Shown here one piece after another: positions 22,660 to 50,664 of a stretch of 64,000 bases of DNA. The position numbers and the translations under genes are program-made. Within the stretch, counting starts at the first letter, position 1. Every line of letters starts with the position of its first letter. Location: IMG/VR virus record IMGVR_UViG_3300029368_000161; one strand, 5' to 3'. The notes below the pieces were generated by a model, which saw nothing but the letters and a program-made list of their open reading frames with translations, ran no database searches and was not told the origin of the DNA. The DNA is from a virus.

Positions 22660-22893
22660 GTTGCACCACGCAAGGGTGCAGGGGTGAAATATTATACTGA
22701 ATCGTCGCTGCCTGCATAGATATAGTTGCATCCCTTATGGGATGTATGGGTTGAAATTCAATAGAAACAGATGCATTCGGAGGTGTTACAAGTTGCACCC
22801 CCGCAAGGGGTGCATGGGTTGAAAATAAGAAATGGTAGGAAGGAATTCAGATATGAACATTAGTTGCATCCCGCAAGGGTGCAGGGGTGAAGT
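22660..22893 (+). CRISPR. Mini CRISPR array M1: 4 degenerate type I-C-like repeats, 3 spacers
   Basis: Repeats are gttgcaccacgcaagggtgcaggggtgaaat, gttgcatcccttatgggatgtatgggttgaaat, gttgcacccccgcaaggggtgcatgggttgaaaat and gttgcatcccgcaagggtgcaggggtgaag. Spacers are 34-36 nt. Spacer 2 (tcaatagaaacagatgcattcggaggtgttacaa) recurs in M3. Confidence 0.7.
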
Positions 22894-35877: not shown

Positions 35878-35942
35878 ATGCGGATAAAAGAAGTGCCTGT
35901 TTTCTCTTATCCATTCAGTTTTTTTACCGCATCGCTGCGGAG

Positions 35943-36014: not shown

Positions 36015-36432
36015 ATGGCTTTTTCTGCAATAAAAAAGCCGCATCAAGAAATTTCCTCTTCTCTCTGCGGTCATCTGCGTTTTGCAATATTTCGGTTTTA
36101 AGTGCCTGGTTTAAAATCGAAATCGACCGCGGGAAGGTGTATCATAATAGTTCTGTCCCCATGTTTTCCCGGATTTTGAGCATGAGAAACTAAACATATT
36201 GCTGAAATCGCCGTATGTTCTACAATCATTATTAAAATTTTTACTACTCATCATCTTTAACATGGTTTTCTTTTCCTTTCATTTTAATTAATGCTGGATA
36301 AACAAAAAGCCCGTCACTTAACTCAAAGCTACACATCCAAATAGCTCTGAGTTAAAAGACAGGCACTTCTTTTATCTCATGCACTTATCATATCATACTG
36401 ATCGTGAAGTGTCAACAGGAAATTTAAAAAAG

Positions 36433-36510
36433 GTTATTTTTGGTTATTTTGGTTATTTTTCAAAATAAAACAAAATAAAACAAAATAAAACAAATAAAAA
36501 TCTCCGCCAA
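36433..36510. repeat. tandem microsatellite-like repeats (GGTTATTTT)x3 then (AAAACAAAAT)x4
   Basis: ggttatttttggttattttggttatttttcaaaataaaacaaaataaaacaaaataaaacaaataaaaa, immediately before a hairpin terminator (atctccgccaaaatagacggagattt). Confidence 0.7.
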
Positions 36511-36530
36511 AATAGACGGAGATTTGAAAA

Positions 36531-37151: not shown

Positions 37152-37159
37152 GATTTTTC

Positions 37160-37215
37160 TCCCTTCATCAATGGTTTTATTTACACTTTTAATATGAAAT
37201 ATTAAAAATATTTCA
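37160..37215 (-). promoter_or_regulatory. Type-A promoter/leader module on the minus strand
   Basis: Reverse complement reads tttcatattaaaagtgtaaataaaaccattgatgaagggagaaaaatcATG. Divergent from the plus-strand type-B promoter at 37230. Confidence 0.5.
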
Positions 37216-37229
37216 AAAAATTTCCCGGA

Positions 37230-37268
37230 AATTTTTGACGAAATTTCAAAAGGCGCAATATATGTAAT
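37230..37268 (+). promoter_or_regulatory. Type-B promoter
   Basis: atttttgacgaaatttcaaaaggcgcaatatatgtaatg. Confidence 0.5.
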
Positions 37269-37289
37269 GAAAGGAGGAGGAAATACAAA

Positions 37290-37622
37290 TTGAAATGTTT
37301 GACATGCAAGAAACACTGGTCGCAGGGAGGCCGCTGTTCAGAGAACGTGAGAAACTGCCTGCATTATGAGGAAGAACCAAGAGGAAAAATGGTCCGCACA
37401 GAACTGTCTTTTCGTATGGATGCAGAGGCGGAAACTCCGGTGGTCAGATTTGGAGAGAAAATACTGGTTTCCGATGGTTCAAAAGCGGTCGAGATGACTG
37501 TGGTCAAGATCAACTGGGTTAATCTTCGGGATATGCTCTGCAATGTATCCGCGGATTATCATGAGAATGAGATGCCGCGATTTGAGAAAGAAAAGAAGTT
37601 CAAAGCATTACATGGAAAATAG
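37290..37622 (+). CDS. hypothetical protein (110 aa, TTG start)
   Basis: AAAGGAGGAGG RBS. A TTG start gives the 110-aa product, whereas the nearby ATG gives only 26 aa. Start assignment uncertain. Confidence 0.4.
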   Translation: MKCLTCKKHWSQGGRCSENVRNCLHYEEEPRGKMVRTELSFRMDAEAETPVVRFGEKILVSDGSKAVEMTVVKINWVNLRDMLCNVSADYHENEMPRFEKEKKFKALHGK

Positions 37623-37781
37623 TTGCATTCCAGTGGAATGCATGGGGTGAAAGAAATAGGCAAATCGCATGACAATTTCTGAAATTAAATTGTTGCGCTC
37701 CCGTGGAGGGGGGCGTATGGATTGAAATGTGGAATCCTGTGATTGGCACATACTTGGGTGTAGTGCAGAAAAAGTGACCCA

Positions 37782-38057
37782 TTACAGATCACTTTCGATG
37801 AAAATTTGCTTTGCGATTTTTCCGATCACCCAATTTGGAATGTCGCTGCGGCATCCAGAATGGATTTCTCCGTTTTCAACAAAAAAGAATGCGGATTCTT
37901 CCGTTTTCATGCGGTCTAAAGCTTGCGCAGAAAAATATAAGGAATGGTGGAAGTCGCATCTTTGTGCCTCCTCATATGTATGGACTTCCTCTATTTTCCC
38001 ATCGATCAGGCTGACACAGCCGGACCAGAACTCTTTTCCTTCGAATATTGCTGCCAT
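37782..38057 (-). CDS. hypothetical protein (91 aa)
   Basis: Minus-strand ORF. TTGAAAGGAGCAAAAC-ATG start with a type-A motif upstream on the minus strand. Confidence 0.5.
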   Translation of the reverse strand: MAAIFEGKEFWSGCVSLIDGKIEEVHTYEEAQRCDFHHSLYFSAQALDRMKTEESAFFFVENGEIHSGCRSDIPNWVIGKIAKQIFIESDL

Positions 38058-38112
38058 GTTTTGCTCCTTTCAAAATACTTTCGTTTACACTTTCAATATG
38101 AAATGAAAATAT
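38058..38112 (-). promoter_or_regulatory. Type-A promoter/leader module on the minus strand
   Basis: Reverse complement reads tttcatattgaaagtgtaaacgaaagtattttgaaaggagcaaaacATG. Divergent from the type-B promoter at 38130. Confidence 0.5.
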
Positions 38113-38129
38113 TTCAAAACATTTCCAAA

Positions 38130-38170
38130 AACTTTTGACGATTTTTTAAATGGCGCAATATGTATCATGT
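38130..38170 (+). promoter_or_regulatory. Type-B promoter
   Basis: acttttgacgattttttaaatggcgcaatatgtatcatg. Confidence 0.5.
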
Positions 38171-38345
38171 AAAGGTCATAAACCGAGCTGCCAGGGTTAT
38201 CGGCTGGCAGAAATCTTTTCGATATTTGTTTACACTCCGGGGAAACCCGGAAGGGGTAGTGAGGACGCAGCGTGTGCTGTTTCCGGGTTCGATTCCCGGG
38301 TATCCCTTTTGACTGCCACATACGGTCTTCTCAAAATTCAGCCGT
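38171..38345 (+). promoter_or_regulatory. L1 structured 5' leader RNA, copy c
   Basis: gtaaaggtcataaaccgagctgccagggttatcggctggcag...tccggggaaacccggaa-GGGGTA-gtgaggacgcagcgtgtgctgtt-tccgggttcgattcccgg-GTATCCC-tttt. The loop change GGTTACCGG to GGTTATCGG and the outer stem GGGGTA/TATCCC covary relative to copies a and b. Confidence 0.5.
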
Positions 38346-38588
38346 CTGCGGCCTGTGGAACTTTCCACTGGACCAAAATAACGATAACCGCCAGAATAAC
38401 AGCAGCGTGCGTTGGCGTGAGAACTATCGGCGCACAGGGATTACTCCTTTCATATTTATCTATCAAACCTTTCCGTACATCGTATGGAAAGGTTATGGGA
38501 CAGCAGGTGCATAGACATGAACTATTCCGGGATCGTTTCCCGGATGTTCCATTTTTAAAACATTAAAACAAATCATAGGAGGGAATTG

Positions 38589-39314
38589 ATGATGGAGAAA
38601 GAAGTAGTATATGTTGCAGAACTGGATTCCGATGTTGATGATGTCGTTGCGGCACATTACTTATTTAACGAGGGTGTGTTAAAGTGTGTAGTATGCGATC
38701 CATATCCAAGAACACCGGAGGGGTTGGCACGAAAGGGAAAGCTGGAAACGCTTGGCATCGATGTGGTTAAGAAAATGCCACCGGTTGCAAAATATGTGTT
38801 TGTTGGCGGCGCTCTTACGGCTGTTGCTGGCTATATCCGGATGCACCATGTCGACTGGCTGGTAATGAACGGAGGCTTTGTTGGAGCAAATATTGCGACC
38901 TTTGAACTGGATAAGTTCAAGGGGAAGAACACTGTCCGTACCTTCAATTTCAACTGCGATGTTGTGGCTGCAGATACGGTTTTGAAAACTGATGAGAAGC
39001 ATATTTCTCATATTGTTCTTGTCGGAAAAAACGTCTGCCATGACGTCCGAAATACGAAAAATGGTCTCTGGAGTGGCGAGAAATACAAGAAATTGTTCGA
39101 TGAGTACCGGGTTAAGGATGAGAAGCGTCAACACGACTTGCTTGCCTGCCATGAGGGGCTTGCATTTCTGCGGGGAACCAATGCGATCTGTGAGTATGAG
39201 ATGGTAAGACCATACAACACAGGCTTGAATGGCAAGCTGACGCAGTGGGGTAGCACAAAAACCATGGAAACACCATATCGCGAAGTGCTTGCTGCTGTTG
39301 GCTACCAGAATTAA
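38589..39314 (+). CDS. nucleoside hydrolase-like protein (IU-NH family signature DxDxxxDD)
   Basis: N-terminal VYVAELDSDVDDVVAAHYL matches the IUNH aspartate cluster. 241 aa. ATAGGAGGGAATTG-ATG start. Confidence 0.5.
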   Translation: MMEKEVVYVAELDSDVDDVVAAHYLFNEGVLKCVVCDPYPRTPEGLARKGKLETLGIDVVKKMPPVAKYVFVGGALTAVAGYIRMHHVDWLVMNGGFVGANIATFELDKFKGKNTVRTFNFNCDVVAADTVLKTDEKHISHIVLVGKNVCHDVRNTKNGLWSGEKYKKLFDEYRVKDEKRQHDLLACHEGLAFLRGTNAICEYEMVRPYNTGLNGKLTQWGSTKTMETPYREVLAAVGYQN

Positions 39315-39316
39315 AA

Positions 39317-39488
39317 GCTGCATCATGTGCGGGGGTGTATGGATTGAAATGTCGGAGTATGGTGTAAGAATCATATATATTCCTACGTTGTGCTCCTCCC
39401 GGTTGGTGCATGGGTTGAAATATAGTTCTAAAAATGGTTGGAAGACCTGTTTTTTGGTTACACCCATTGTCAGCTGTAAACCACAGTT
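39317..39488 (+). CRISPR. Mini CRISPR array M2: 3 degenerate repeats, 2 spacers, starting 2 nt after the stop of the preceding gene
   Basis: gctgcatcatgtgcgggggtgtatggattgaaat / spacer gtcggagtatggtgtaagaatcatatatattcct / acgttgtgctcctcccggttggtgcatgggttgaaat / spacer atagttctaaaaatggttggaagacctgttttttg / gttacacccattgtcagctgtaaaccacagtt. Confidence 0.55.
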
Positions 39489-40119
39489 AAGGCTTTCGGA
39501 TGCGGTTAAAGTTTAAAAAGGCAACACCGCCAGATGGCTGTTCCTTTCGCGCCCTGAGATCAAGAAATCATTATGGGGCGGGCACTTACCAAATGAACTT
39601 GAAAGAAAGATCTACGTGGAATCCATGATCCACAGGACAAAGGATAATCCCATTGTCCTTTATGACTTTGATGACAGGTTTTACCAGTGCATGTACATGC
39701 TCCACTATGCGTGAAGATGGCACAGTCGCTGAAAGACGGTTCTTAAAACTCCCGGCAGAATACGACTCTCTGCAACATAAGATCGATCATATCAAACGTG
39801 CACGGCACCATGGTTCCAGACGTGTTTCAAACCTCTGGGCATATGCAGACGACGTCAATAAAGACATTGTTGTAAAAACAGCCCAGTTTGTTACGGATAC
39901 TGCCGTGCTGCATGTTAACAGCATGCAGTTGCGGTGTTATCACTGTGTCCTCAGTCAGCGAGTCCATACGGGAAAACAGGTATGGAAGCACGCGAATTTA
40001 GTCATGTGAGACTTCACGGCCGGCCGCCGAAAGGACGTACACTACAAAAGCCTTTTGCACCTGACTTTTCTGTGGTATACTGAAAATATAAAAGATATTT
40101 CAAGGAGAAGGCAGAGAAA

Positions 40120-40992
40120 ATGAGAAAAAGTGTGAAAGATTTTGGAAATTTTGTAAGAAAAGACAATTACCCGGAGCTTCCAGAAGAATTGAAAGAATTT
40201 AACTATTTTTTGAGTGATGGCGAGACGGGACATGTGATCATGGCTGTGCCTGAGCACACTTTGAATAAAGCAGAAGAAAATGTGGATGAACTGGATGATT
40301 ACGAATGTCCAGTTCCAGTGGCATATGTTCTTAAGAATGGCTATCGGCTGTATAAGAACCATGTAATATGCCAGGTTCCGTACGATGAGAAACTGGGGAT
40401 GCGTATTCCGGAAGAATATTACGAACCGTCGATTATTTCTACAGATGCCGGGGAAGCAGAGAATCCGGTGTCCGGAGAGTTCCCTTATGAGAAAAGGAAA
40501 TGCTATCCAGAATTTGCAAACCATGCAGAAGCTGTAGTTGCGGACATCGTTAAGGATTACGTGCAGATCCGCGTATTTTTTAAAAATCCTACAGAAAACG
40601 AGATTGCACAGTTTTCTCCGGATGCCAGACTGAAAATTCGTTTTACGGAGATGGATGGAACCTGTCTGTTTACCGTTAAAGCTGGTGATTTGTCATGGAT
40701 GGATGCACCATACCATGCAAAACTTGCAAAAGATTTGTCTGGATTCGACTTTACAGGTGAAGGTGAGATTCCGTTATATCTCCTCCTGATCGACTCATCG
40801 AATGGTGAGGTCAAAGCGGTTCGAAATGTCCAGTTGTCAGAAGAGTTTTCCAGCAAATTGAGAAATCTGGTGGATCGTCAGGTCAACTCTGATTTTGATA
40901 AAAAGAAATATGCGGATATATTGTCCAACATTTATCTCCTTTTTTCATCGGATGAGCTGGCGGATGCCAGCACCATTAAGTGTCAGTGGTAG
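40120..40992 (+). CDS. hypothetical protein (290 aa)
   Basis: RBS CAAGGAGAAGGCAGAGAAA-ATG. Extended -10 tgtggTATACT upstream at about 40068-40078. Confidence 0.55.
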   Translation: MRKSVKDFGNFVRKDNYPELPEELKEFNYFLSDGETGHVIMAVPEHTLNKAEENVDELDDYECPVPVAYVLKNGYRLYKNHVICQVPYDEKLGMRIPEEYYEPSIISTDAGEAENPVSGEFPYEKRKCYPEFANHAEAVVADIVKDYVQIRVFFKNPTENEIAQFSPDARLKIRFTEMDGTCLFTVKAGDLSWMDAPYHAKLAKDLSGFDFTGEGEIPLYLLLIDSSNGEVKAVRNVQLSEEFSSKLRNLVDRQVNSDFDKKKYADILSNIYLLFSSDELADASTIKCQW

Positions 40993-41012
40993 GTAAGAAG
41001 ATATACTTTACT

Positions 41013-41231
41013 GTTGCGCCCCATTGGGTGCATGGGTTGAAATCTTTATGACCTTCTGAAAAGTGAGGGCATCTTAGTTGCACCCCCGCAAGGGATGTAT
41101 GGGTTGAAATTCAATAGAAACAGATGCATTCGAAGGCGTTACAAGTTGCACCCCGCGAGGGGTGTATGGGTTGAAATTGCAGAAAGCTCAGGATTGGAAG
41201 GTTGCATCCTATGGGATGCATGGATTGAAAC
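41013..41231 (+). CRISPR. Mini CRISPR array M3: 4 repeats, 3 spacers; the middle repeat-spacer-repeat unit is near-identical to M1
   Basis: gttgcgccccattgggtgcatgggttgaaat / ctttatgaccttctgaaaagtgagggcatctta / gttgcacccccgcaagggatgtatgggttgaaat / tcaatagaaacagatgcattcgaaggcgttacaa / gttgcaccccgcgaggggtgtatgggttgaaat / tgcagaaagctcaggattggaag / gttgcatcctatgggatgcatggattgaaac. Confidence 0.7.
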
Positions 41232-41329
41232 GAACATATTTGTTATTATTTATTATTGAGATCAGAAAGGTCTGCAGTCAGTTAATCTGGCTGCAGATTT
41301 TTTTTTGCAATTTTTTAAAAATTTTCCAA

Positions 41330-41370
41330 AATCTTTTGACGATTTTTTAAAAGGCGCAATATACATATTG
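41330..41370 (+). promoter_or_regulatory. Type-B promoter (first of two tandem copies upstream of cas5c)
   Basis: atcttttgacgattttttaaaaggcgcaatatacatattgaagggataaacaggggcttaccg. The +1 region TATTGAAGGRATAAACAGGGGCTTRCCG is shared with the 41593 copy. Confidence 0.5.
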
Positions 41371-41580
41371 AAGGGATAAACAGGGGCTTACCGTTTGTTT
41401 CTTCAATAAGAGTTTTTCTCTTATATGCCTCCTTAAGTTTCCTGCGCTGCATTTACAGCATTTTGGCAGCGCAGGGGGAATCCACAGGACTGCATTTGAC
41501 GTTGTGTGGCGGCCTGCTCATCCGGTTCAACCCCGGAGGATTCCCTTACCGCTTATTTTTGCGGAGACAAAAATTTTAAA
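41371..41580 (+). promoter_or_regulatory. L2 structured leader (paralog of 11781-11999), ending in T-arm-like hairpin tccggttcaaccccgga
   Basis: cagcgcagggggaatccacaggactgcatttgacgttgtgtggcggcctgctcatccggttcaaccccggaggattccc, then a weak terminator ccgcttatttttgcgg. Confidence 0.4.
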
Positions 41581-41592
41581 AAATATTCAAAA

Positions 41593-41632
41593 ATTCTTTG
41601 ACGATTTTTTAAAAGGCGCAATATGTGTATTG
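41593..41632 (+). promoter_or_regulatory. Type-B promoter (second tandem copy, proximal to cas5c)
   Basis: ttctttgacgattttttaaaaggcgcaatatgtgtattgaaggaataaacaggggcttgccg. Confidence 0.5.
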
Positions 41633-41677
41633 AAGGAATAAACAGGGGCTTGCCGCTGTTGATTACCAGAGTTAAAA

Positions 41678-41709
41678 GTTGTGCCCCTATGGGGTGCATG
41701 GGTAATAAG
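41678..41709 (+). repeat. solitary degenerate CRISPR repeat in the cas5c 5' UTR
   Basis: gttgtgcccctatggggtgcatgggtaataag versus the M3 repeat gttgcgccccattgggtgcatgggttgaaat (hairpin-forming core retained). It ends 9 nt before the cas5c ATG. Confidence 0.55.
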
Positions 41710-41717
41710 AGAAAGGA

Positions 41718-42392
41718 ATGGAAAAAGAAAAAATGGGAGTGAAACTAAAAGTCTGGGGAGATTACGCATTGTTCACCAGACCAGAACTGAAAACTGAACG
41801 GTATACATACGATGTGATGACACCGTCGGCGGCTAGAGGAATTCTGGAATCTATCTACTGGCATCCGGGACTTCGGTGGTATGTAGACAAGATTCATGTA
41901 TTAAATCCGATTGCCACTACGAGCGTGAGAAGAAATGAACTTCTCAGTAAGATACCAAAGTCAAATATGCTGCAGGCATACAACGGCGGGGATGTGAAAC
42001 TGTATAACTCGTCAAGAGACGATATTATCCAGAGGGCATCTGTTATTCTCCGGGATGTCTGCTATGTGATTGAGGCGCATTTTGAAATGACAGGGAAAGC
42101 GAGCCCAACAGACAGCCCGGCAAAGTTTATAAGTATCTTTAACAACAGGGCAAGAAAAGGGGCATGTTATTCGATGCCGTATTTTGGTGTAAGGGAATTC
42201 CCGGCACACTTTGAACTCTGCGAAGGAGATGAAAAGATCCCATCCTACTATGAAGGACTTCCGGATAAAGATCTCGGGCTGATGCTTTATGATCTGGATT
42301 ACTCCTGCGGTAGAGATATCCAGCCAATGTATTATCATGCGATTATGAAAAACGGCGTTATTGACGTTGGAAACAGTGAGGTGCTTCGATGA
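41718..42392 (+). CDS. cas5c: Cas5c (type I-C Cas5d; Cascade subunit and pre-crRNA endoribonuclease)
   Basis: N-terminus ...KLKVWGDYALFTRPELKTERYTYDVMTPSAARGILESIYWHP matches the Cas5d hallmark. 224 aa. Overlaps cas8c by ATGA. Confidence 0.8.
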   Translation: MEKEKMGVKLKVWGDYALFTRPELKTERYTYDVMTPSAARGILESIYWHPGLRWYVDKIHVLNPIATTSVRRNELLSKIPKSNMLQAYNGGDVKLYNSSRDDIIQRASVILRDVCYVIEAHFEMTGKASPTDSPAKFISIFNNRARKGACYSMPYFGVREFPAHFELCEGDEKIPSYYEGLPDKDLGLMLYDLDYSCGRDIQPMYYHAIMKNGVIDVGNSEVLR

Positions 42393-44128
42393 TCCTTCAG
42401 TCACTTGTGAAATTATATGAAACACTTGCGGATCAGGGAAAAGTGTCCCGTCCTGGCTGGTGTAATGCAAAGGTATCCTATGCGGTGGTTTTAAACCATG
42501 ATGGGACGATTAAAGATATTGTTTCCGTGAAACAGAAAGTGAAGAGAGGAAAGAAGACTGTTGAAATTCCAATAATTATGCAGGTTCCAGAGATGGTCAC
42601 CCGCGCTAACAACATTGCCTCCAGCTTTCTCTGCGAAAATGCAAAGTATCTCTTTGGGATTGACGAAAAGATGAGTTTGCGTACACTGGAATGTTTTAAG
42701 GCGGCAAAGAAAAAACATCTTGATATTCTTGATGTTGTGGATTCACCTGTAGCACAGACGGTATGTAACTTTTTCCGTTCATGGGATCCGGAACAGGCGT
42801 TGGATCAACCGGCTGTTGCAAAACTTGCAGAAGAGTTTTATAAAGGCGGAAACCTCGTTTTTGAAGTAGATGGGGAATATGTGCATGATAATGAAGAAGT
42901 CCGCAGGGCATGGATGGATTACAGCAGTGTACCATATGAAATGGTAATTGGAAGATGCCTTATTACTGGAGAGGAAGCGGAGATTGCCCGCACGCACGGG
43001 AAAATCAAAGGAGTTCCGGGAGCACAGTCATCTGGCGCGTCGCTTGTATCATTTAACGGAGCATCCCTTGAGTCTTATGAAAAAACACAGAGCTACAACG
43101 CGCCGATTAGCACCTATGCGGCGTATGCATATGTGACCGCGCTGAATTACTTGCTTTCTACGGACGGGTATCACAGCAAGGTAGGAGATTCCATGGTGGT
43201 TTTCTGGACAGATTCCGGGGATGTGGATGATGTGAGCAGACTGCGGAAGATGATGGGAAGCATCAATGAAAAGGATCACACCCCTACAGATACGGATGAA
43301 AAACTGTACGTCCTCTGCCTTGCACCAAATGCCGGGCGAATTGCAGTCCGGTTCTTCTATGAGGATGCGATCGGGGTAATCTGGGAAAACCTGTCCGAAC
43401 ATGCCAGTCGGATGAAGATTGTAAAACCAGTATTTGAGGATCAAGAATTTATCAATATCTGGCAGATGCTCATGGAGACAGTCAACCAGAATCTTACAGA
43501 TAAAACACCTGTCCCGCATATGTCAGCAATGACGTTACAGTCAGTCATTTCGGATACACCGTATCCGCAGAGTCTGTATGCAGGTGTGTTATCTCGTATC
43601 CGCGCGGAGCACAAAGGTGTTACTTACAGAAAAGCATCGATTATTAAAGCTTTTTTAATAAAGAACTACAAATGGGAGGAAGGAAAAAATATGGAAGCAT
43701 TAAATGAAGGCTGTAAGGATCGGGCATATATCCTTGGAAGACTGTTTGCGGTTATGGAAAAGGCACAGAAAGAAGCAGTTGGCAATATCAACCAGACAAT
43801 TTGTGATAAGTTTTACAATTCCGCGTGCACAACACCAAGATCGATCTTTCCAGTACTGATCAGGCTATCTAACAGTCATTTAAGTAAGTTGAAACGGACA
43901 AAACCGGGGAGAGGATATTATTTTACAGCTAAAATGCAGGATTTAATGGATAAAATTCCGGTAACAGATGATGATCCGGGATTCCCGCGGCGTTTCTCAT
44001 ATGAGGATCAGGGTAAGTTTGCACTTGGTTATTATCATCAGATGCGGGCGGAATATACAAGCAGTAAGTTAAAAGATAATGATTCAGAAGGTGATCAGAC
44101 AAATGCAGAGAATATGGAGGAAAACTAA
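42389..44128 (+). CDS. cas8c: Cas8c (Csd1, type I-C large subunit)
   Basis: 579 aa, of the size expected for Cas8c/Csd1. Assigned from the conserved order cas5c-cas8c-cas7c and translational coupling to cas5c (ATGA overlap). Confidence 0.7.
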   Translation: MILQSLVKLYETLADQGKVSRPGWCNAKVSYAVVLNHDGTIKDIVSVKQKVKRGKKTVEIPIIMQVPEMVTRANNIASSFLCENAKYLFGIDEKMSLRTLECFKAAKKKHLDILDVVDSPVAQTVCNFFRSWDPEQALDQPAVAKLAEEFYKGGNLVFEVDGEYVHDNEEVRRAWMDYSSVPYEMVIGRCLITGEEAEIARTHGKIKGVPGAQSSGASLVSFNGASLESYEKTQSYNAPISTYAAYAYVTALNYLLSTDGYHSKVGDSMVVFWTDSGDVDDVSRLRKMMGSINEKDHTPTDTDEKLYVLCLAPNAGRIAVRFFYEDAIGVIWENLSEHASRMKIVKPVFEDQEFINIWQMLMETVNQNLTDKTPVPHMSAMTLQSVISDTPYPQSLYAGVLSRIRAEHKGVTYRKASIIKAFLIKNYKWEEGKNMEALNEGCKDRAYILGRLFAVMEKAQKEAVGNINQTICDKFYNSACTTPRSIFPVLIRLSNSHLSKLKRTKPGRGYYFTAKMQDLMDKIPVTDDDPGFPRRFSYEDQGKFALGYYHQMRAEYTSSKLKDNDSEGDQTNAENMEEN

Positions 44129-44129
44129 G

Positions 44130-45041
44130 ATGAGCACACCAATTAAGAACAGATATGATTTCGTAGTATTATTCGACGTAGAGAATGGAAATCCGAACGG
44201 TGATCCGGATGCCGGAAATATGCCGAGAGTTGATCCAGAGACTGGCATCGGGCTTGTGACAGATGCCTGCATAAAGCGCAAGATCCGTAATTATGTGGAA
44301 ACTGTAAAAGAAGATGCAGCCGGGTTCAAGATCTATATTAAAGAGGGGGTCCCGCTGAACCGGAGTGACCTTAAGGCAGTCGAAAGTCTTGGTATTGACG
44401 TCGGTGACGACAAAAATGCACTTGAAGATGTAAAGAAGCTGAAAAAGACAGATGAAGATGTGGATCTTAAGCTCCGTGACTATATGTGTAGTAATTTCTA
44501 TGATATCCGTACATTTGGTGCTGTCTTGACTACCTTTACAAAGGCGGCATTAAACTGTGGGCAGGTACGTGGCCCGGTACAGATTGGTTTTGCAAAAAGT
44601 ATTGATCCTGTTTTCAGCCAGGATATTACTGTAACCAGAGTTGCAATCACAACGGAAAAGGATGCGGAAAAGAAAAATACAGAAATGGGAAGAAAGAGTA
44701 TTATTCCTTATGGACTTTACCGTGTGGAGGGATATATTTCTGCTAATCTTGCCCGTAAGACCACCGGCTTTTCTGAAGACGATCTGGAACTGCTTTGGGA
44801 AGCAATCATTAACATGTTTGAGAATGACCATTCCGCAGCACGCGGGAAGATGGCAGTGCGTGAGCTCATCGTATTCAAGCATAACAGCGAGCTTGGCAAT
44901 TGTCCATCGTACAAACTGTTTGAAACTGTTGATGTTAAGAAGAATGATGGTGTTGAGTTTCCTCGTAAATATTCCGATTATGCAGTGACTATTCATGAGG
45001 ATGCGATTCCGGATGGCGTGACAATGACTCGCAAAATCTAA
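44130..45041 (+). CDS. cas7c: Cas7c (Csd2/DevR family, type I-C backbone subunit)
   Basis: MSTPIKNRYDFVVLFDVENGNPNGDPDAGNMPRVDPETGIGLVTDACIKRKIRNYVE. The GNPNGDPD motif is the Csd2/Cas7 signature. RBS GGAGGAAAACTAAG-ATG. Confidence 0.85.
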   Translation: MSTPIKNRYDFVVLFDVENGNPNGDPDAGNMPRVDPETGIGLVTDACIKRKIRNYVETVKEDAAGFKIYIKEGVPLNRSDLKAVESLGIDVGDDKNALEDVKKLKKTDEDVDLKLRDYMCSNFYDIRTFGAVLTTFTKAALNCGQVRGPVQIGFAKSIDPVFSQDITVTRVAITTEKDAEKKNTEMGRKSIIPYGLYRVEGYISANLARKTTGFSEDDLELLWEAIINMFENDHSAARGKMAVRELIVFKHNSELGNCPSYKLFETVDVKKNDGVEFPRKYSDYAVTIHEDAIPDGVTMTRKI

Positions 45042-45290
45042 AAAGATTTCCAGAGATTACAAGGCAACCCGCGTTTTGCGGGCTGCATCTGCTTGGGTTA
45101 TGCCGAAATGTAGAATTCCGGTGCGAACTGAAAGCTTACATAGCTTCTCTGGGAGACTCGCACCGGAAATGGAGGTATTAGTGTACAAAAAGAACACAAA
45201 ACCCAACTGTATAAGGCCGTTTGAGAACAATTAATTAGAGGAATTGTTTATATTTTGGCGATCGGGAGAGTTGTTTCTGTTCACTTTTAC

Positions 45291-46058
45291 AGCTACGCCC
45301 CATGGAGGGGCGTATGGATTGAAAATACCGCAACAATTAAAGGCAATGAAAATCTTGTACGCTACGCCCCATGGAGGGGCGTATGGATTGAAAATGATTG
45401 TTATTGTTTTTTATTCATGGAGAGGAAAGCTACGCCCCATGGAGGGGCGTATGGATTGAAAAGTAAGGTTTCGTCTCGAAGCCTTTATTCTGTTTTGCTG
45501 CGCCCCATGGAGGGGCGTATGGATTGAAATACCAAAATCTTTTGACATTCTTATAAATGGTAACAGCTACGTCTTATGGGGTACGTATGGATTGAAATCA
45601 TAATAATTGTAGAGATCTCAATACAAAATAAAGCTGCGTCTCATGGAATACGTATGGATTGAAATGAAAAGGCGAGTTTGCGAAAGCAGATATTGGAATG
45701 TTGCGTCTCGTGGAGTACGTATGGATTGAAATTCCAACTTTAACTACATAACTATCCTGATAAACTTGCTGCACCCCATGGAGAGTGTATGGATTGAAAT
45801 TTAAAAAATCATGGATAACATCTGCGATAAGACGTTGCACCTCGCTAGGGGTGTATGGGTTGAAATTTCCATAATCGGTAGCCAATTATTATCATTAGGT
45901 GTTGCACCCCATAGAGGGTGTATGGATTGAAATTATATAAAAATGATGAATATGTAAAAAAAATAAAAGAGTTACGCTCCATGGAGTGCGTATGGCTTGA
46001 AACCTCTTATTTTTTTAAAGATATCACAATTACGCCCAAAGTGGGCTTACGTAAATTT
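45291..46058 (+). CRISPR. Type I-C CRISPR array: 11 repeats (33-34 nt, consensus GYTRCRCCCCATGGAGRGKGTATGGATTGAAAT) plus a terminal degenerate repeat; 10-11 spacers of 26-38 nt
   Basis: The repeat end GGATTGAAAT/C and internal hairpin match canonical I-C repeats. The leader side is adjacent to cas7c. Repeats degenerate toward the distal end (ttacgctccatggagtgcgtatggcttgaaac, then ttacgcccaaagtgggcttacgtaaatt, which runs into the RBS of the 46073 gene). Spacers are listed in the findings. Confidence 0.85.
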
Positions 46059-46072
46059 AAAGGAGAAAAGTA

Positions 46073-46721
46073 CATGTCAAAAACAAAAGGAATATCAAAA
46101 AAGAAAGATATATTAAAGGTATTTTGGAATGAGTGTGCAGTATTTAAGGTAGTTGTTTGTATTCTTGCGTATGTGATACTCGGCTTTATCAATATACCAA
46201 TTAACAGGTGGCTTACATTTCATGTACCTAAATGGTCAGATGGGAAACTACATGATATAACAGGATCATTTTTTGTTCTTCCTATCCTTGAAGTATTAGC
46301 GGTCACTTTAATTTATCTTATCGCTAATGGATGCTTTTATTTCATCAGCAAGATGATCGCGTACAGGAATTACTGTTACATTCCGCTTACGGAAGATGAA
46401 ATTAAAGGAAAGAAATTTAAGAATGCAAATGAGTATTTTTCCTATGTCCTCAATGTCCTTTCCTATGGTTTTAAGAATGAAAAAGAAAATCTCCAGGTTA
46501 GTGATGATGATCTTCGAGAAATGCTTATAACTTGTCTGATTGTATTCCCTGATAATGGGACAATATTTCAGATAAAACCAGAAACTGCGTGGAATGTTTC
46601 AGACGACATCCTTTTCTCCGAAGCCGTTGAATTGAATTGCGGAAAAGCAGAAATAATTGATAAGCATGTTGTATTGTCTGGTGATAATAGAAACGGCAAA
46701 AGAGAAGAATATACAGTGTGA
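46073..46721 (+). CDS. array-associated membrane protein, paralog family 2
   Basis: MSKTKGISKKKDILKVFWNECAVFKVVVCILAYVILGFINIPINRWLTFHVPKW... has 2 TM segments. Its RBS AAAGGAGAAAAGTAC-ATG lies inside or just after the terminal degenerate repeat. Confidence 0.6.
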
Positions 46722-46772
46722 AAGTTGATAGGTCCTCATTCGAATTTTTTATCAAATTATGGAGGAATGGCA

Positions 46773-47297
46773 ATGGAAACAATAAGAGATTACGAAGCAA
46801 TGGTATACGTACTTGAACATAACCGGAAAAGTGCCGGAACAGGTGAAAATATCAGTTGGAAGAAAATATCATATGAAAAGTTAAGTAAAGAGATGAAAAG
46901 CTATACCGGACGGATTAAGCGTATGCTTGGAGAACTTATATTAAACGGACGGATAGAGATTAAAACAGAACGTCCTTTTGTTTACCGTGTTCTTATTAAA
47001 TCCGTGTTTACAGAAGAAGAATTTAAGGAATACCAGGATACCCGTCTTCTTGGAAAATTCCATGACTCATTATCAAAATTAACTGATACTGTGGAAACTG
47101 CTTCCGAAACAGTACAAGCTGTTTGGCGTCCAAGTGAAGCTATGCAGAAACGCCAGACGGGTGCGGGGAATACGTTTGTGTATAGCAAAGGGAATTCTTT
47201 AAGCGTGCATGAGAGTTTTGAACGGTCAAAACAGAACCGGGAATACCGGCCGGCAGGAGAAAAGGCAGGAAAGAGAAAAGCTGTAACGATATGGTAA
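46773..47297 (+). CDS. hypothetical protein (about 174 aa)
   Basis: GGAGGAATGGCA-ATG start. Confidence 0.5.
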   Translation: METIRDYEAMVYVLEHNRKSAGTGENISWKKISYEKLSKEMKSYTGRIKRMLGELILNGRIEIKTERPFVYRVLIKSVFTEEEFKEYQDTRLLGKFHDSLSKLTDTVETASETVQAVWRPSEAMQKRQTGAGNTFVYSKGNSLSVHESFERSKQNREYRPAGEKAGKRKAVTIW

Positions 47298-48753: not shown

Positions 48754-48990
48754 GAAGCTATTACTATGTATTTCATTACTCTTATCTAAGTTTTGTTAGA
48801 ATTAAAGAGGTTTGTCATGCTTATTGTTTTGAGCGTCATTATAGTATTTATGGGTAATTCAGAATGGGTATCCTGCAAGAATTGTAATAGAAAAATCTGA
48901 GGCTATTAATTCATTATTCTTTCCTAAAAATACAGAAGCCAAAGATTAGATTATTCTTGCAAAAATGCATTTAAGGAGGAACAAATTTTA

Positions 48991-49479
48991 ATGAATACGT
49001 TGGAAAATTTAGAAATGGTATTGTTTGACTTTGATGATACGCTGTGTATACATAGTCATCGCTCAGATTCTTATGAGGAACTGATGGAATATTTGTCATA
49101 TATTCATTCAGGTGAAACATTTCCAAAATCATGGAATAAATCAAAACCGAATTTGCAGTTAAAGAAATTCATGGATTATCTTGCTTATAAGAATATCCCT
49201 ATGGGTTTAATTAGCGGAGTGCGTGATTGTAAGACTGCGGAAAGAAAGATCAAATGGGTTAAAGAAAATTACGGTTACTTACTGGAAAATTACTGTGTAT
49301 CCAGTCAGGAACAGAAGATTATTGAACTTAAGGTCCTTGCAAAGGTTAACAGGCTTCATGAAAACCAGATTGCTATTATCGACGATTTATATCCCAATCT
49401 TGAAAAAGCAGAAAGTGAAGGTTTCGTTGCTCTTTCCCCAATGCAGGTTGTCAATTTATTTAATGAAATATCTAAATAG
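48991..49479 (+). CDS. HAD-superfamily hydrolase-like protein (DxDxT)
   Basis: MVLFDFDDTLCIHS is HAD motif I. Paralogous to the N-terminal half of the 49669 product (about 60% identical). Confidence 0.55.
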   Translation: MNTLENLEMVLFDFDDTLCIHSHRSDSYEELMEYLSYIHSGETFPKSWNKSKPNLQLKKFMDYLAYKNIPMGLISGVRDCKTAERKIKWVKENYGYLLENYCVSSQEQKIIELKVLAKVNRLHENQIAIIDDLYPNLEKAESEGFVALSPMQVVNLFNEISK

Positions 49480-49668
49480 AGACCTACTGATACTGCCGAG
49501 ATTGCACAAGATTACGATTTTCCATTGCAGGATATGTGAGAGATAATTTGTTGAATTAGAGGTGATTATATTGGATTTATTTGGAAGAGATTTATGGACC
49601 CAAGCAGATGAAGATTTTTTAGGTAGAAAGTGTTATTTGTTGCAAAGTACGGTTGGAAGGGGATTTTA

Positions 49669-50664
49669 ATGAATAAGTTGGAAAATTTAAAAATGGTGCT
49701 GTTTGACTTTGATGATACATTGGCTGTGCATAGTCAAGGACATCGCATAAGCGATCATCTGATGAAATATATGATAAACGTGCATTCTGGAAGTAAAGAA
49801 TTATGGAATACCTCGAAACCGAATTTACAATTAAAGAAATTCATGGATTATCTCGCCTGTAAGAACATTTCTATGGGATTGATTAGTGGAGTACATGATT
49901 GTAAAGCCGCGGAAAGAAAAATCGAATGGGTCAAAGAAAACTATGGGTATTCATTAGAGAATTATTGTGTATCCAGTCAAGAACAGAAGATGATTGAATT
50001 ATCAACCATTGCAGAGGTTAATGGATTTCATGAAAGCCAGATTGCTCTTGTTGATGACTACTATGAAAATCTCGGAAATGCTGAAAAAATGGGATTTACA
50101 ACATTTTCTCCTATGGAAATTGTTAATTTGGTTAATTGCTTTCAAAATACAGATTTGGAAAAAATGTTGATCAGCCCTGATCCTGGGTGGGGGATAAATT
50201 TACGAAATAAATACATATTCTGGGATATAGACGGCACTTTAGCGGAATACCGGTTTAACGGGCATGTTTCAGATCCGGAAGGTACTGATAACGGTATGAG
50301 TTTAAAAGAAATTGAGGATGGGGTTTTTCTCAAGAGAAAACCATCTTATCATATGCAGATGGTATTGTCTACATGTGGCGCGAAGCAGAACATTGTAATG
50401 GGGCACTGCCAGGTACAGAAAGAAATGGATGATAAACAGCTCTGGCTGGACAAGTATTATCCAAGTATCACAGAACGTTTACTTGTGTCGGAAGATAAAT
50501 CGAAAGCAGATACCATTTTGCAATACTGTAAGGATCATGATATTAGCTTGCAAGATGTGGTATTTGTTGATGACACGATTCCATTTCTCCGCGAAGCAGA
50601 GCGAAAAGGGATTAAATCATTTCATATCAGCAGTTTTTTGGATTGGGATTTCGAAAGGAGGTAA
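49669..50664 (+). CDS. tandem-duplicated HAD-like hydrolase
   Basis: First half has MVLFDFDDTLAVHS. Second half has a second DxDxT (IFWDIDGTLAEY) and ...VVFVDDTIPFL. Confidence 0.55.
   Translation: MNKLENLKMVLFDFDDTLAVHSQGHRISDHLMKYMINVHSGSKELWNTSKPNLQLKKFMDYLACKNISMGLISGVHDCKAAERKIEWVKENYGYSLENYCVSSQEQKMIELSTIAEVNGFHESQIALVDDYYENLGNAEKMGFTTFSPMEIVNLVNCFQNTDLEKMLISPDPGWGINLRNKYIFWDIDGTLAEYRFNGHVSDPEGTDNGMSLKEIEDGVFLKRKPSYHMQMVLSTCGAKQNIVMGHCQVQKEMDDKQLWLDKYYPSITERLLVSEDKSKADTILQYCKDHDISLQDVVFVDDTIPFLREAERKGIKSFHISSFLDWDFERR

What the first reader, a model, noticed from the sequence alone, without database searches (positions are those of the whole stretch)
41330..46058. Minimal type I-C CRISPR-Cas: cas5c-cas8c-cas7c plus array, with no cas3 and no adaptation genes, on a mobile element
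The operon order and motifs identify Cas5c, Cas8c and Cas7c. Cas5c has the GDYALFT N-terminus and Cas7c has GNPNGDPD. The adjacent array has canonical I-C repeats. No cas3 (HD-helicase), cas4, cas1 or cas2 is present anywhere in 64 kb. The only helicase, at 20185, lacks an HD domain and sits 20 kb away in another cassette. Type I-C normally depends on Cas3 for interference, and Cas5c alone suffices for crRNA processing. A Cas3-less, Cas1/2-less complex that still binds guides would give DNA binding without cleavage. This is the configuration proposed for CRISPR-guided transcriptional silencing by some phages and plasmids. The element surrounding it looks phage-like (tRNAs, ligase, CCA enzyme, reiterated early-type promoters).
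Basis: partly seen in the sequence, partly recalled or inferred. Interest (0 to 1): 0.85.

Follow-up and report, generated by a model that had tools for sequence, protein, structure and literature searches.

The report
Cascade-only CRISPR on Roseburia giant element
A very large mobile element (probably a jumbo phage) of the gut bacterium Roseburia carries the DNA-recognising half of a type I-C CRISPR system, without the cutting or memory-forming genes nearby, yet its array keeps gaining guides against rival phages.

Summary
cas5c (41733-42392), cas8c (42389-44128, with an internal cas11c start at 43691) and cas7c (44130-45041) pass curated I-C profiles. An 11-repeat array follows at 45292-46003. 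No cas3, cas1, cas2 or cas4 lies in the 64 kb window or within about 10 kb on either side.

- Four more mini-arrays sit at 22725, 37622, 39317 and 41013. A repeat-like hairpin lies in the cas5 leader.
- The repeats are not uniform. Their stems differ but still pair, with compensatory changes.
- The array is not static. Across 12 copies of the element, the leader end carries six different extra spacers, while spacers 4-10 are fixed.

One new spacer matches 21 viral contigs of about 40 kb at 34/34, always next to the canonical TTC PAM. Other spacers resemble an antirepressor gene, a gene of this element's own family, and its promoter consensus.

The element reaches contigs of 375 kb and is binned with Roseburia faecis. 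The closest complete I-C systems are in Roseburia (Cas8c about 50% identical).

Best reading: a working Cascade-plus-guides module for phage-against-phage conflict. Cas1-2-4, and possibly Cas3, come from outside the locus. Silencing without cutting is plausible but unproven. This is a new variant of a known kind (Al-Shayeb 2020).

The parts
22725..22825 (+). Mini-array A22: 2 repeats and 1 spacer, starting 240 nt after the RadD/XPB-like helicase gene. Its spacer is a 32/34 copy of spacer 2 of mini-array D41.
37622..37728 (+). Mini-array B37: 2 degenerate repeats and a 41-nt spacer. It begins at the stop codon of ORF 37290-37622. Conserved in the six loci that cover this region (L001-L006).
38108..38192 (+). 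Copy 1 of an 85-nt promoter-like block (TTGACGATTTTTTAAA.GGCGCAATAT). The core motif occurs 6 times in the window against 0 expected.
39317..39421 (+). Mini-array C39: 2 weak-stem repeats and a 39-nt spacer, starting 3 nt after the stop of ORF 38586-39314. Reduced to one degenerate repeat in relative L057.
40120..40992 (+). orf290, an acidic protein of unknown function just upstream of the cas block. It also sits next to cas5 in relative L057 (83% identity, dN/dS 0.09). No family or fold was assigned.
41013..41231 (+). Mini-array D41: 4 repeats and 3 spacers (33, 34 and 23 nt). Spacer 1 resembles the 3' end of a phage antirepressor (Ant) gene with a TTC PAM.
41269..41308 (+). Hairpin followed by a T9 run, an intrinsic-terminator-like element closing mini-array D41. 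Also present in L057.
   Evidence: read from the sequence; the consensus terminator scan did not list it
41309..41393 (+). Copy 2 of the 85-nt promoter-like block.
41394..41570 (+). Strongly structured non-coding stretch between the two promoter copies (z = -5.15 for 41366-41575). Absent from L057 and matches no Rfam family.
41571..41655 (+). Copy 3 of the promoter-like block, the likely promoter of the cas operon.
41678..41709 (+). Repeat-like hairpin with a degenerate handle (ATGGGTAATAAG) in the cas5 5' leader. It keeps its position in L057 with a different but still pairing stem.
41733..42392 (+). cas5c (an alternative start lies at 41718). It aligns full length to the Cas5c chains of solved I-C Cascade structures (7kha/8dex).
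42389..44128 (+). cas8c, 579 aa.
43691..44128 (+). Internal cas11c reading frame. ATG at codon 435 follows GGGAGGAAGG. It aligns to solved Cas11c chains, and the RBS and ATG are conserved in L057.
44130..45041 (+). cas7c, 303 aa.
45042..45291 (+). Leader. The AGAYTCGCAC motif (about 45154-45163), roughly 130-140 nt upstream of repeat 1, and a T-rich proximal part are shared with Roseburia I-C leaders.
45292..46003 (+). Main array: 11 repeats and 10 spacers. Repeats 1-3 are identical and this end varies between copies. Spacers 4-10 are fixed and flanked by diverged, covarying repeats.

Best explanation
This is a functional type I-C Cascade module: Cas5c, Cas8c with an internally translated Cas11c, and Cas7c. 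It sits on a 265-375 kb Roseburia-associated mobile element, probably a jumbo phage. One growing CRISPR array and four fixed mini-arrays serve it.

**Proposed mechanism.**
- Cas5c cuts the transcripts at the base of each repeat hairpin.
- The resulting guides load into Cascade.
- Cascade binds TTC-flanked protospacers in rival mobile elements in the same host. These include a 40 kb temperate-type phage and diverged relatives of the element itself.

**What is missing from the locus.**
- The locus encodes no nuclease and no integrase.
- New spacers are nevertheless being added. Adaptation (Cas1-Cas2-Cas4) must therefore be supplied from outside the locus. The most likely source is a complete Roseburia I-C system in the same cell. 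The alternative is the unread remainder of the element.

**My commitment on the interference step.** The primary effect is tight Cascade binding that blocks early transcription of the rival. Degradation follows only where a compatible Cas3 is available.

**Shown.**
- Gene identities.
- Purifying selection on the genes.
- Repeat structure and covariation.
- Leader-end spacer turnover.
- One exact TTC-flanked viral target.
- Absence of cas3/1/2/4 over about 84 kb.

**Inferred.**
- crRNA processing and loading.
- Trans supply of adaptation.
- The mode of interference.
For: **The module is intact and under selection.**
- The genes hit curated I-C models.
- Cas5c aligns end to end with the Cas5c chains of solved I-C Cascade structures (7kha/8dex).
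- The internal Cas11c start has a strong RBS. It aligns to solved Cas11c chains and is conserved in a relative.
- dN/dS between the window and the roughly 87%-identical relative L057 is 0.089 for cas8c and 0.045 for cas7c.

**The repeat hairpin is maintained.** 93% of cells pair. Four of six pairs show compensatory changes. No shuffle out of 500 reached the observed percent paired, number of double-change cells or covariation score.

**Adaptation is active.**
- Six different extra leader-end spacers occur across 12 copies.
- Spacers 1 and 3 are each missing from some copies.
- A one-base repeat variant has propagated through four consecutive leader-end repeats.
- Leader motifs are shared with Roseburia I-C leaders.

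**Targets are other phages.**
- Spacer n6 matches 34/34 in 21 IMG/VR contigs of 7.6-48 kb (18 of them 36-48 kb), all with 5'-TTC.
- That protospacer covers the RBS and start codon of the first gene of the operon carrying Sak, DnaC-loader and Ant homologues.
- D41 spacer 1 matches an Ant gene 24/33, mostly at third codon positions, with a TTC PAM.
- Spacer n2 matches the element's own gene 18047-18892 at 26/35, with 14 contiguous PAM-proximal bases.
- Spacer 4 matches the element's promoter consensus 25/35.

**Host.**
- Exact window proteins are annotated in NCBI MAGs as Roseburia faecis.
- The nearest Cas8c homologues, at about 50%, are in complete Roseburia I-C loci: cas3-cas5-cas8c-cas7-cas4-cas1-cas2-array.
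- Those loci share the TGGATTGAAAT handle.

**Blocking rather than cutting.**
- Spacers average 32.8% GC, against 40-41% for TTC-flanked 34-mers (P about 1e-3 to 1e-4).
- That is closer to intergenic sequence (35%) than to coding sequence (41%).
Against: **Limits of coverage.**
- Only about 84 kb of a 265-375 kb element could be read. cas3 and cas1-2-4 may lie elsewhere on it.
- Of the 21 distinct spacers, six were scanned against IMG/VR and only one (n6) gave an exact target there. None of the 21 matched GenBank phages or plasmids. Bacterial chromosomes could not be scanned for spacers.

**Doubts about trans adaptation.**
- The leader-end repeat matches no array in 185,579 species genomes.
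- It differs from the Roseburia repeat in stem, loop and length (34 against 32 nt).
- Use of a host integrase is therefore not assured.

**Doubts about silencing.**
- Two of the four informative spacers fall in the 3' parts of coding regions, which is not where a pure silencer would be expected.
- The GC bias could simply reflect AT-rich unknown targets.

**Doubts about the element.**
- No capsid or terminase gene was seen, so phage identity is unproven.
- MAG binning is only indirect evidence of the host.
Confidence: 0.55

Rival explanations
1. One reading: a pure CRISPRi device. Cascade never recruits a nuclease. It only represses target transcription, with no Cas3 involved in any host.
For: - No cas3 lies within about 84 kb.
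- Spacers are AT-rich and look like gene 5' ends. n6 lies on an RBS and start codon, spacer 4 lies on a -35 region, and mean GC is 32.8% against about 40%.
- There is precedent: Al-Shayeb 2020 proposed this for huge-phage systems that lack a nuclease.
Against: - PAM-correct adaptation is occurring. A I-C adaptation module, which normally travels with cas3, must therefore be in the same cell.
- Cas8c is full length, with no visible loss.
- D41 spacer 1 and n2 lie in the 3' parts of coding regions.
- The mode of interference was not testable here.
Confidence: 0.35
2. A split but complete I-C system. cas3 and cas4-cas1-cas2 are encoded elsewhere on the 265-375 kb element, and the locus only looks minimal because of the window.
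For: - Spacer acquisition is active.
- The leader-end repeat is unique to the element and differs between its lineages: GCTACGCCCC... in the window, GTTGCACCCC... in L057. This would be natural if a co-evolving integrase of its own were at work.
- Arrays are already scattered over 23 kb.
- Cas4-like genes are reported in huge phages.
Against: - Nothing was found within 10 kb on either side of the window.
- In I-C loci cas3 and cas4-1-2 normally flank cas5-8-7 directly.
- Almost all huge-phage CRISPR systems lack adaptation genes.
Confidence: 0.3
3. Counter-defence. The repeat units, the mini-arrays and perhaps the Cascade itself act as decoys (RNA anti-CRISPRs, or a dominant-negative complex) against the host's own I-C system, rather than as a targeting system.
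For: - The repeats share the host-type 11-nt handle.
- Several units are degenerate or solitary, notably B37, C39, the cas5-leader hairpin and the solitary repeats in L057.
- I-C Racrs have been shown experimentally in other phages.
Against: - Decoys need neither leader-end spacer turnover nor TTC-flanked exact protospacers in other phages.
- The fixed spacers are conserved in sequence along with their repeats.
- A full set of Cascade genes under strong purifying selection is unnecessary for a decoy.
Confidence: 0.1
4. Self-regulation. Some fixed guides, such as spacer 4, and the leader hairpin control the element's own promoters and its cas operon in a CreR/CreA-like way.
For: - Spacer 4 matches the element's reiterated promoter 25/35, including 15 contiguous PAM-proximal bases, at 38124 and 41325.
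- The repeat-like hairpin in the cas5 leader is conserved with covariation.
Against: - The matching promoter sites have TTT rather than TTC, a mismatch at position 1 and 10 mismatches overall.
- No other spacer has a PAM-flanked seed match of 11 nt or more in the window, apart from n2, which comes from another strain.
- The similarity is equally explained if spacer 4 was acquired from a relative that shares the promoter family.
Confidence: 0.12

Closest known systems
Canonical type I-C (Dvulg) CRISPR-Cas, e.g. the Roseburia loci L047-L049 and the solved D. vulgaris and N. lactamica systems
   Same: - Cas5c, Cas8c with internal Cas11c, and Cas7c in the same order.
- Repeats of 31-34 nt with a hairpin and a TGGATTGAAAT handle.
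- Spacers of 32-37 nt in the main array.
- A TTC PAM.
- Shared leader motifs.
   Different: - No cas3 upstream and no cas4-cas1-cas2 downstream.
- The proteins are only 50-78% identical to the nearest bacterial ones.
- The repeats are heterogeneous, whereas Roseburia arrays have about 40 identical copies.
- Five arrays are dispersed over 23 kb.
- It sits on a mobile element.
CRISPR systems of huge phages that lack adaptation and/or interference genes (Al-Shayeb et al. 2020, PMC7162821), including the 'type I-C variant' with a helicase in place of Cas3
   Same: - A very large phage-like element.
- Compact arrays.
- No Cas1, Cas2 or Cas4, and no Cas3.
- Guides aimed at other phages.
- The same proposed options: use of host Cas proteins, or repression without cleavage.
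   Different: - This is a canonical rather than variant I-C Cascade, and Cas5c matches the curated models at full length.
- No helicase adjoins the cas genes. The only helicase is RadD/XPB-like, 19 kb away, although a mini-array follows it.
- Direct population evidence shows ongoing spacer gain.
- The repeats are diversified yet covarying.
Type IV-A3 systems on plasmids, which acquire spacers in trans through a host type I-E adaptation module and act without a nuclease (bioRxiv 10.1101/2023.06.23.546257; PMC11519345)
   Same: - An element-borne effector complex without its own adaptation genes.
- An array that nevertheless grows.
- Use in conflict between mobile elements.
- Nuclease-independent interference as the likely mode.
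   Different: - A different CRISPR type.
- No DinG helicase.
- The carrier is phage-like rather than a conjugative plasmid.
- Trans acquisition is inferred here, not demonstrated.
Viral CRISPR mini-arrays and solitary repeat units or RNA anti-CRISPRs (PMC11656645; PMC10651486)
   Same: - Arrays of one to three spacers sit in the 3' regions of unrelated genes.
- Some spacers relate to relatives of the carrier.
- Solitary degenerate repeats occur, in the cas5 leader and in L057.
   Different: - The repeats are not identical to a host repeat.
- The element carries its own Cascade genes.

Membership tests
Type I-C CRISPR-Cas | Cas5c (Cas5d) in place of Cas6 | tested here: met
   TIGR01876 scores 176 bits against a cut-off of 85, and PADLOC Cas5c gives 2.5e-65. 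It aligns full length to the Cas5c chains of solved I-C Cascade structures.
Type I-C CRISPR-Cas | Cas8c/Csd1 large subunit with Cas11c translated from an internal start | tested here: met
   TIGR01863 scores 398 bits against 219. The internal ATG at 43691 follows GGGAGGAAGG and aligns to residue 4 onward of Cas11c chain 7kha_K. It is conserved in L057. Translation itself was not shown.
Type I-C CRISPR-Cas | Cas7c/Csd2 backbone subunit | tested here: met
   TIGR02589 scores 342 bits against 182.
Type I-C CRISPR-Cas | Cas3 HD-helicase effector in the locus | tested here: not met
   No Pfam HD or Cas3 hit. tblastn with two Roseburia Cas3 proteins found nothing at E<1 over the window and 10 kb each side. 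The rest of the element could not be read.
Type I-C CRISPR-Cas | Cas4-Cas1-Cas2 adaptation module in the locus | tested here: not met
   tblastn was negative and the flanks hold none. The array nevertheless shows leader-end gains.
Type I-C CRISPR-Cas | Repeat with a hairpin and a 3' ...ATTGAAA(C/T) handle, and a 5'-TTC PAM | tested here: met
   All 20 distinct repeat units (19 array repeats plus the cas5-leader hairpin) keep a stem. All but B37 repeat 1, main-array repeat 11 and the cas5-leader unit keep the ATGGRTTGAAA handle. TTC precedes the protospacer in 21 of 21 targets of spacer n6.
Cas3-less derived type I systems on mobile elements (huge-phage I-C variant; CASTs) | A substitute partner next to Cascade: a helicase in the huge-phage variant, or TnsABC/TniQ in CASTs | tested here: not met
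   No Tn7 genes were found among the scanned ORFs. The only helicase is RadD/XPB-like and lies 19 kb upstream. The immediate neighbours have no assignable function.
Viral mini-arrays that exploit host Cas proteins | Repeats identical to those of the host's CRISPR system | tested here: not met
   There was no exact match in 185,579 species genomes. The Roseburia repeat differs in stem, loop and length. The nearest matches, at 31-32 of 33 bases, are single repeats in Clostridia and Faecalimonas MAG contigs.
Viral mini-arrays that exploit host Cas proteins | Spacers target relatives of the carrier virus | tested here: inconclusive
   Spacers n2 and 4 resemble the element's own gene and promoter family, at 26/35 and 25/35. 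No exact target in a relative was recovered.
CreA/CreR-type CRISPR-derived regulators | Degenerate repeats flanking a spacer that partly matches a nearby promoter beside a PAM | tested here: inconclusive
   Mini-arrays B37 and C39 have degenerate repeats, but no PAM-flanked seed match in the window. Spacer 4 matches own promoters, with a TTT PAM and a mismatch at position 1.
RNA anti-CRISPR (Racr) / solitary repeat unit | A solitary repeat downstream of a promoter, not associated with cas genes or spacers | tested here: not met
   The arrays carry spacers and lie beside cas genes. Only the cas5-leader hairpin is solitary, and it is part of the cas operon leader.

The most novel reading that the evidence does not exclude
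A jumbo phage of Roseburia keeps a private Cascade, orthogonal to the host's, as a Cas3-free programmable repressor of rival phages' early regions.
- It would stock the Cascade in two ways. The first is a set of ancient guides stabilised against recombinational loss by diversified but covarying repeats. The second is a growing array replenished by the host's Cas1-2-4 in trans.
- It would tune its own cas operon through a Cas5c-recognised repeat-like hairpin in the operon leader.
Probability: 0.2. Interest if true: 0.8.

Novelty: new variant of a known kind. Interest (0 to 1): 0.58.

Why it matters
Cas3-less and Cas1/2-less CRISPR loci on huge phages have been catalogued, but their working mode is unknown. 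This example is unusually tractable for four reasons.

- **It is common.** The exact Cas8c occurs in 288 data blocks of human gut assemblies, and the element is tied to a cultivable genus, Roseburia.
- **It shows adaptation without local adaptation genes.** Natural variation records ongoing, PAM-correct spacer gain in an array with no adaptation genes nearby. That makes trans-adaptation between a bacterial I-C system and a phage array directly testable.
- **It has an identified target.** One guide has an exact target phage.
- **It raises two testable side questions.**
  - The diversified, covarying repeats suggest a natural solution to array instability, the same problem engineers meet when building multiplexed guide arrays.
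  - The conserved repeat-like hairpin in the cas5 leader hints at autoregulation by Cas5c.

If Cascade alone suffices, this would be a natural CRISPRi system used in conflict between phages.

Tried and rejected
**Searches for spacer targets.**
- The array and all 22 spacer sequences (21 distinct) against GenBank phages and PLSDB plasmids gave only chance-level hits.
- Exact IMG/VR scans for the A22/D41 duplicated spacer, n1, s1, D41 spacer 1, spacer 4 and n2 found nothing. Only n6 hit.
- No spacer matches the window or the fetched copies of the element at 8 mismatches or fewer.
- 111 Roseburia spacers do not target the element. One matches the n6 target phage family only 26/35 and without a PAM, which I judged too weak for host assignment.
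- To find the exact source of n2, I searched homologues of gene 18047-18892. None carries the encoded peptide SNEEAVRDGYT.

**Searches for the host repeat and related loci.**
- An exact search for the leader-end repeat in 185,579 genomes found nothing. A degenerate pattern hit only Clostridia and Oscillospiraceae MAG contigs.
- Cas8c against IMG/VR found no relative.
- The locus has no plasmid match.

**Candidates for a hidden effector.**
- The helicase as a Cas3 substitute is rejected. It is RadD/XPB-like, has no HD domain, and lies 19 kb away.
- A 236-aa HD-domain gene occurs in other strains, in the position of window 59934-60635. It carries a generic HD domain, is absent from the window and is unlinked.
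- orf290 has only two homologues. Its AlphaFold model has a mean pLDDT of 55, and Foldseek against the PDB found nothing at E below 0.09.

**Other scans.**
- Rfam found no family across 36000-47000.
- The sigma-70 consensus scan found no more sites than in shuffled sequence.
- PHROG scans found no capsid, terminase or other hallmark gene.
- The Cas3-recruitment residues of Cas8c could not be assessed. The paper's text gives no residue list, and the N-terminal region aligns poorly.

Full report
**1. What is there**

ORFs at 41718/41733-42392, 42389-44128 and 44079/44130-45041 match the type I-C Cas5c, Cas8c and Cas7c models far above curated cut-offs in Pfam, NCBIfam and PADLOC.
- Cas5c aligns end to end with the Cas5c chains of the solved D. 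vulgaris I-C Cascade structures 7kha and 8dex.
- The C-terminal 145 codons of cas8c begin with an ATG at 43691, preceded by GGGAGGAAGG. They align from residue 4 of solved Cas11c chains. The internally translated small subunit typical of I-C is therefore encoded.
- A 250-nt leader follows cas7c, then 11 repeats at 45292-46003.

No cas3, cas4, cas1 or cas2 is detectable.
- Pfam on 41 window ORFs, covering every ORF of 200 aa or more, found none.
- tblastn with the Roseburia proteins over the window and about 10 kb either side found nothing at E<1, while the Cas5 control scored 1e-94.
- The flanks hold RecA, SpoVG, a PARG-like gene, IS200/605 genes and unknowns.
- The helicase at 20185 is RadD/XPB-like and has no HD domain.

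**2.

*More arrays.* Repeat-like units occur at four further sites on the same strand.
- 22725-22825: 2 repeats, starting 240 nt after the helicase gene.
- 37622-37728: 2 repeats.
- 39317-39421: 2 repeats.
- 41013-41231: 4 repeats, closed by a hairpin-T9 terminator.

Three of these mini-arrays start within 21 nt of the stop codon of an unrelated ORF. The mini-array at 22725 starts 240 nt after the helicase gene. The spacer at 22758 is a 32/34 copy of the one at 41111. A further repeat-like hairpin with a degenerate handle sits at 41678-41709, in the cas5 leader.

*Heterogeneous repeats.* Only repeats 1-3 of the main array are identical.
- The other units keep the 3' handle ATGGRTTGAAAT, except B37 repeat 1, main-array repeat 11 and the cas5-leader unit. 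All of them differ in the stem.
- In a register-anchored alignment of the 20 distinct units, 93% of cells pair.
- Four of six pairs show changes on both sides (A-U to G-C, C-G to U-A).
- No shuffle out of 500 reached the observed percent paired, number of double-change cells or covariation score. Slid registers collapse to 18-62% paired.
- Roseburia chromosomal I-C arrays, by contrast, have about 40 identical repeats.

The hairpin that Cas5c recognises is thus being kept by selection while the primary sequence drifts. Some units, namely C39, D41 repeat 2 and main-array repeats 5-8 and 11, have weakened upper stems.

**3. The element and its host**

- The exact Cas8c is found in 288 data blocks of public assemblies, on contigs up to 355 kb.
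- Other window proteins are on contigs up to 375,736 bp.
- NCBI annotates those proteins as 'MAG... [Roseburia faecis]' under at least two MAG locus-tag series.
- A 169-aa window protein occurs in 4,064 blocks. The CRISPR-bearing lineage is therefore a subset of a much wider element family.
- The window holds 14 tRNAs (13 of them in one cluster), NAD-ligase, a CCA enzyme, two DNA methylases, an IS3-type transposase and mostly unknown genes.
- PHROG hits are all of unknown function, and no capsid or terminase was seen. 'Jumbo phage' is likely but unproven.
- The nearest Cas8c homologues are only about 50% identical and belong to Roseburia species.
- Their loci are complete: cas3-DUF3990-hyp-cas5-cas8c-cas7-cas4-cas1-cas2-array.
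- Element against Roseburia: Cas5 62%, Cas8 50%, Cas7 78%. The 11-nt crRNA handle is identical.
- The element's leader shares an AGAYTCGCAC motif, roughly 130-140 nt upstream of repeat 1, and a T-rich proximal segment with the Roseburia leaders.

**4. The genes are under selection**

A Logan contig (L057) carries a roughly 87%-identical copy of orf290-cas5-cas8-cas7.
- dN/dS is 0.089 for cas8c, 0.045 for cas7c and 0.094 for orf290.
- The internal cas11c RBS and ATG are unchanged.
- L057 lacks mini-array D41 apart from one solitary degenerate repeat. It also lacks the duplicated promoter block and most of C39.
- Its first main-array repeat is different: GTTGCACCCCGCGAGGGTGCATGGATTGA.
- The cas5-leader hairpin keeps its position in L057 with a wholly different but pairing stem (GCATC/GATGT against GTGCCCC/GGGGTGC) and the same degenerate handle ATGGRTAATRAG. 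No such element lies upstream of cas3 or cas5 in the Roseburia loci.

**5. The array is growing**

Arrays from 12 copies (the window, L001-L006 and L021-L025) share spacers 4-8 wherever the contig covers them. Spacers 9 and 10 are present in every copy except the truncated L024. The copies differ at the leader end.

| Copy | Leader-end order |
|---|---|
| window | s1-s2-s3 |
| L004 | n1-s1-s2-s3 |
| L025 | n6-s1-s2-s3 |
| L005 | s2-s3 |
| L021 | s1-n2-n3-s2-s3 |
| L022 | n4-n5-s2, then s4 |

In L021 a one-base repeat variant (GGGCGT) is present in the four consecutive leader-end repeats, as expected if the first repeat is copied at each integration. This is the signature of Cas1-Cas2 integration plus occasional internal deletion. 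The locus has no adaptation genes, so adaptation acts from elsewhere.

**6. What the guides recognise**

- **n6** matches 34/34 in 21 IMG/VR contigs of 7.6-48 kb (18 of them 36-48 kb), always preceded by 5'-TTC.
  - The protospacer covers the RBS and start codon of a 52-aa gene. That gene opens the leftward operon holding Sak-like, DnaC-loader and Ant homologues, next to a divergent intergenic region.
- **D41 spacer 1** matches the 3' end of an Ant gene in the same phage family 24/33. It has a TTC PAM, and most differences are synonymous third-codon changes (LYDLLKSEGIL against LYDLLKQEGIL).
- **n2** matches the element's own gene 18047-18892 at 26/35, with 14 contiguous PAM-proximal bases and a TTT PAM. 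It was probably taken from a diverged relative, though no exact source was found.
- **Spacer 4** matches the element's reiterated promoter (6 copies against 0 expected) at 25/35, including the -35 region.
- No spacer matches the window or the fetched copies at 8 mismatches or fewer.
- None hits GenBank phages or plasmids.
- Spacers are AT-rich: mean GC is 32.8% overall and 30% for the fixed ones.
  - TTC-flanked 34-mers average 39.8% in the window and 40.8% in the target phage (P about 1e-3 to 1e-4).
  - That is nearer intergenic sequence (35.4%) than coding sequence (41.2%).

**7. Interpretation**

The data support a functional Cascade-plus-guides module used against rival mobile elements in the same host.
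- Processing by Cas5c and loading into Cascade are inferred from homology and from the covariation.
- The locus has no nuclease or integrase, yet the array shows PAM-correct adaptation. A I-C adaptation module must therefore act on it. The source is either a Roseburia chromosomal system in trans or genes elsewhere on the element.
- For interference I favour Cascade binding that blocks early transcription, with degradation where a compatible Cas3 is present. Support comes from the lack of cas3 in 84 kb, the n6 and spacer 4 positions, and the AT bias.
- This step is not shown.
- Two informative spacers lie in the 3' parts of coding regions, and only about a quarter of the element was readable.

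**8. Comparison with what is known**

- Al-Shayeb et al. 2020 reported the following:
  - almost all huge-phage CRISPR systems lack Cas1/2/4, and many lack interference genes;
  - a I-C variant exists with a helicase in place of Cas3;
  - such systems might use host Cas proteins or might repress without cleavage.
- Viral mini-arrays and solitary repeats are reviewed in PMC11656645 and PMC10651486.
- Trans acquisition is documented for plasmid type IV-A3.
- I found no paper on this element or on a Roseburia-associated Cascade-only I-C.

The finding is therefore a new variant of a known kind. Four things are new:
- a canonical I-C Cascade serving five dispersed arrays;
- repeats that are diversified yet covarying;
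- population-level proof that an array with no local adaptation genes keeps acquiring TTC-selected spacers;
- a conserved repeat-like hairpin in the cas operon leader.

**9. Verdict**

- Observation: confirmed.
- Interest: moderate to high (0.58).

Noticed in passing
window 41678-41709; L057 2397-2424: A CRISPR-repeat-like hairpin with a degenerate handle sits in the cas5 5' leader, just before the RBS. It keeps its position in an 87%-identical relative with a completely different but still pairing stem. It is absent upstream of cas genes in Roseburia I-C loci. It may be a Cas5c binding or cleavage site for autoregulation.
   Followed up: partly
window 41366-41575: A 210-nt non-coding stretch between two copies of the 85-nt promoter block folds far better than shuffles (z = -5.15). 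It matches no Rfam family and is absent from relative L057. It is a candidate small RNA just upstream of the cas operon.
   Followed up: partly
window 11742, 28975, 33106, 38132, 41333, 41595: The promoter-like motif (C/T)TTTGACGATTTTT(T/C)AAA(A/T)GG occurs 6 times on the + strand, against 0 expected in shuffles. It is probably a class of element-specific promoters.
   Followed up: partly
window 34508-36014 (- strand) and 52913-52987: A cluster of 13 tRNA genes lies on the strand opposite to nearly all protein genes, with a separate tRNA-Met further on.
   Followed up: no
window 38282-38300 and 38526-38544: Two hairpins resemble tRNA T-arms (TCCGGGTTCGATTCCCGGG). They lie inside the predicted ORF 38150-38566 and were not called as tRNAs by ARAGORN.
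   Followed up: no
window 29546-30741 (- strand): An IS3-family transposase (rve, HTH_21) is inserted in the element. Other copies carry IS200/605 Y1 transposase genes in the left flank (L053 5637-7417).
   Followed up: no
window 48985-49479 and 49663-49998: Tandem paralogous copies (83-86% DNA identity) of a roughly 162-aa gene with weak similarity to polynucleotide kinase/HAD proteins.
   Followed up: no
L050 4356-5066 against window 59934-60635: This is a strain-variable slot. Other copies carry an unrelated 236-aa generic HD-domain protein where the window has a 233-aa protein of no known family. Nothing links it to the cas genes.
   Followed up: partly
L013, L014, L017, L019, L020 (Clostridia/Oscillospiraceae MAG contigs): Other I-C-like arrays have mixed repeat variants, and no homologue of the window's Cas5c, Cas8c or Cas7c was found by tblastn in the 7-8 kb of each contig fetched. 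Heterogeneous repeats may be a wider property of element-borne I-C arrays.
   Followed up: no
L010 (264 kb contig, rabbit-gut Clostridia MAG) 2443-6136: A stand-alone Cas11c-like ORF of 121 aa is followed by a Cas7c 69% identical to the window's, then further ORFs and a 4-repeat array. Upstream lies a 734-aa protein with Thr-rich repeats where cas8c would be expected.
   Followed up: no
window 22758-22791 and 41111-41144: The same spacer is kept in two mini-arrays 18 kb apart, differing at two positions. This could widen coverage of target variants or simply be redundancy.
   Followed up: no
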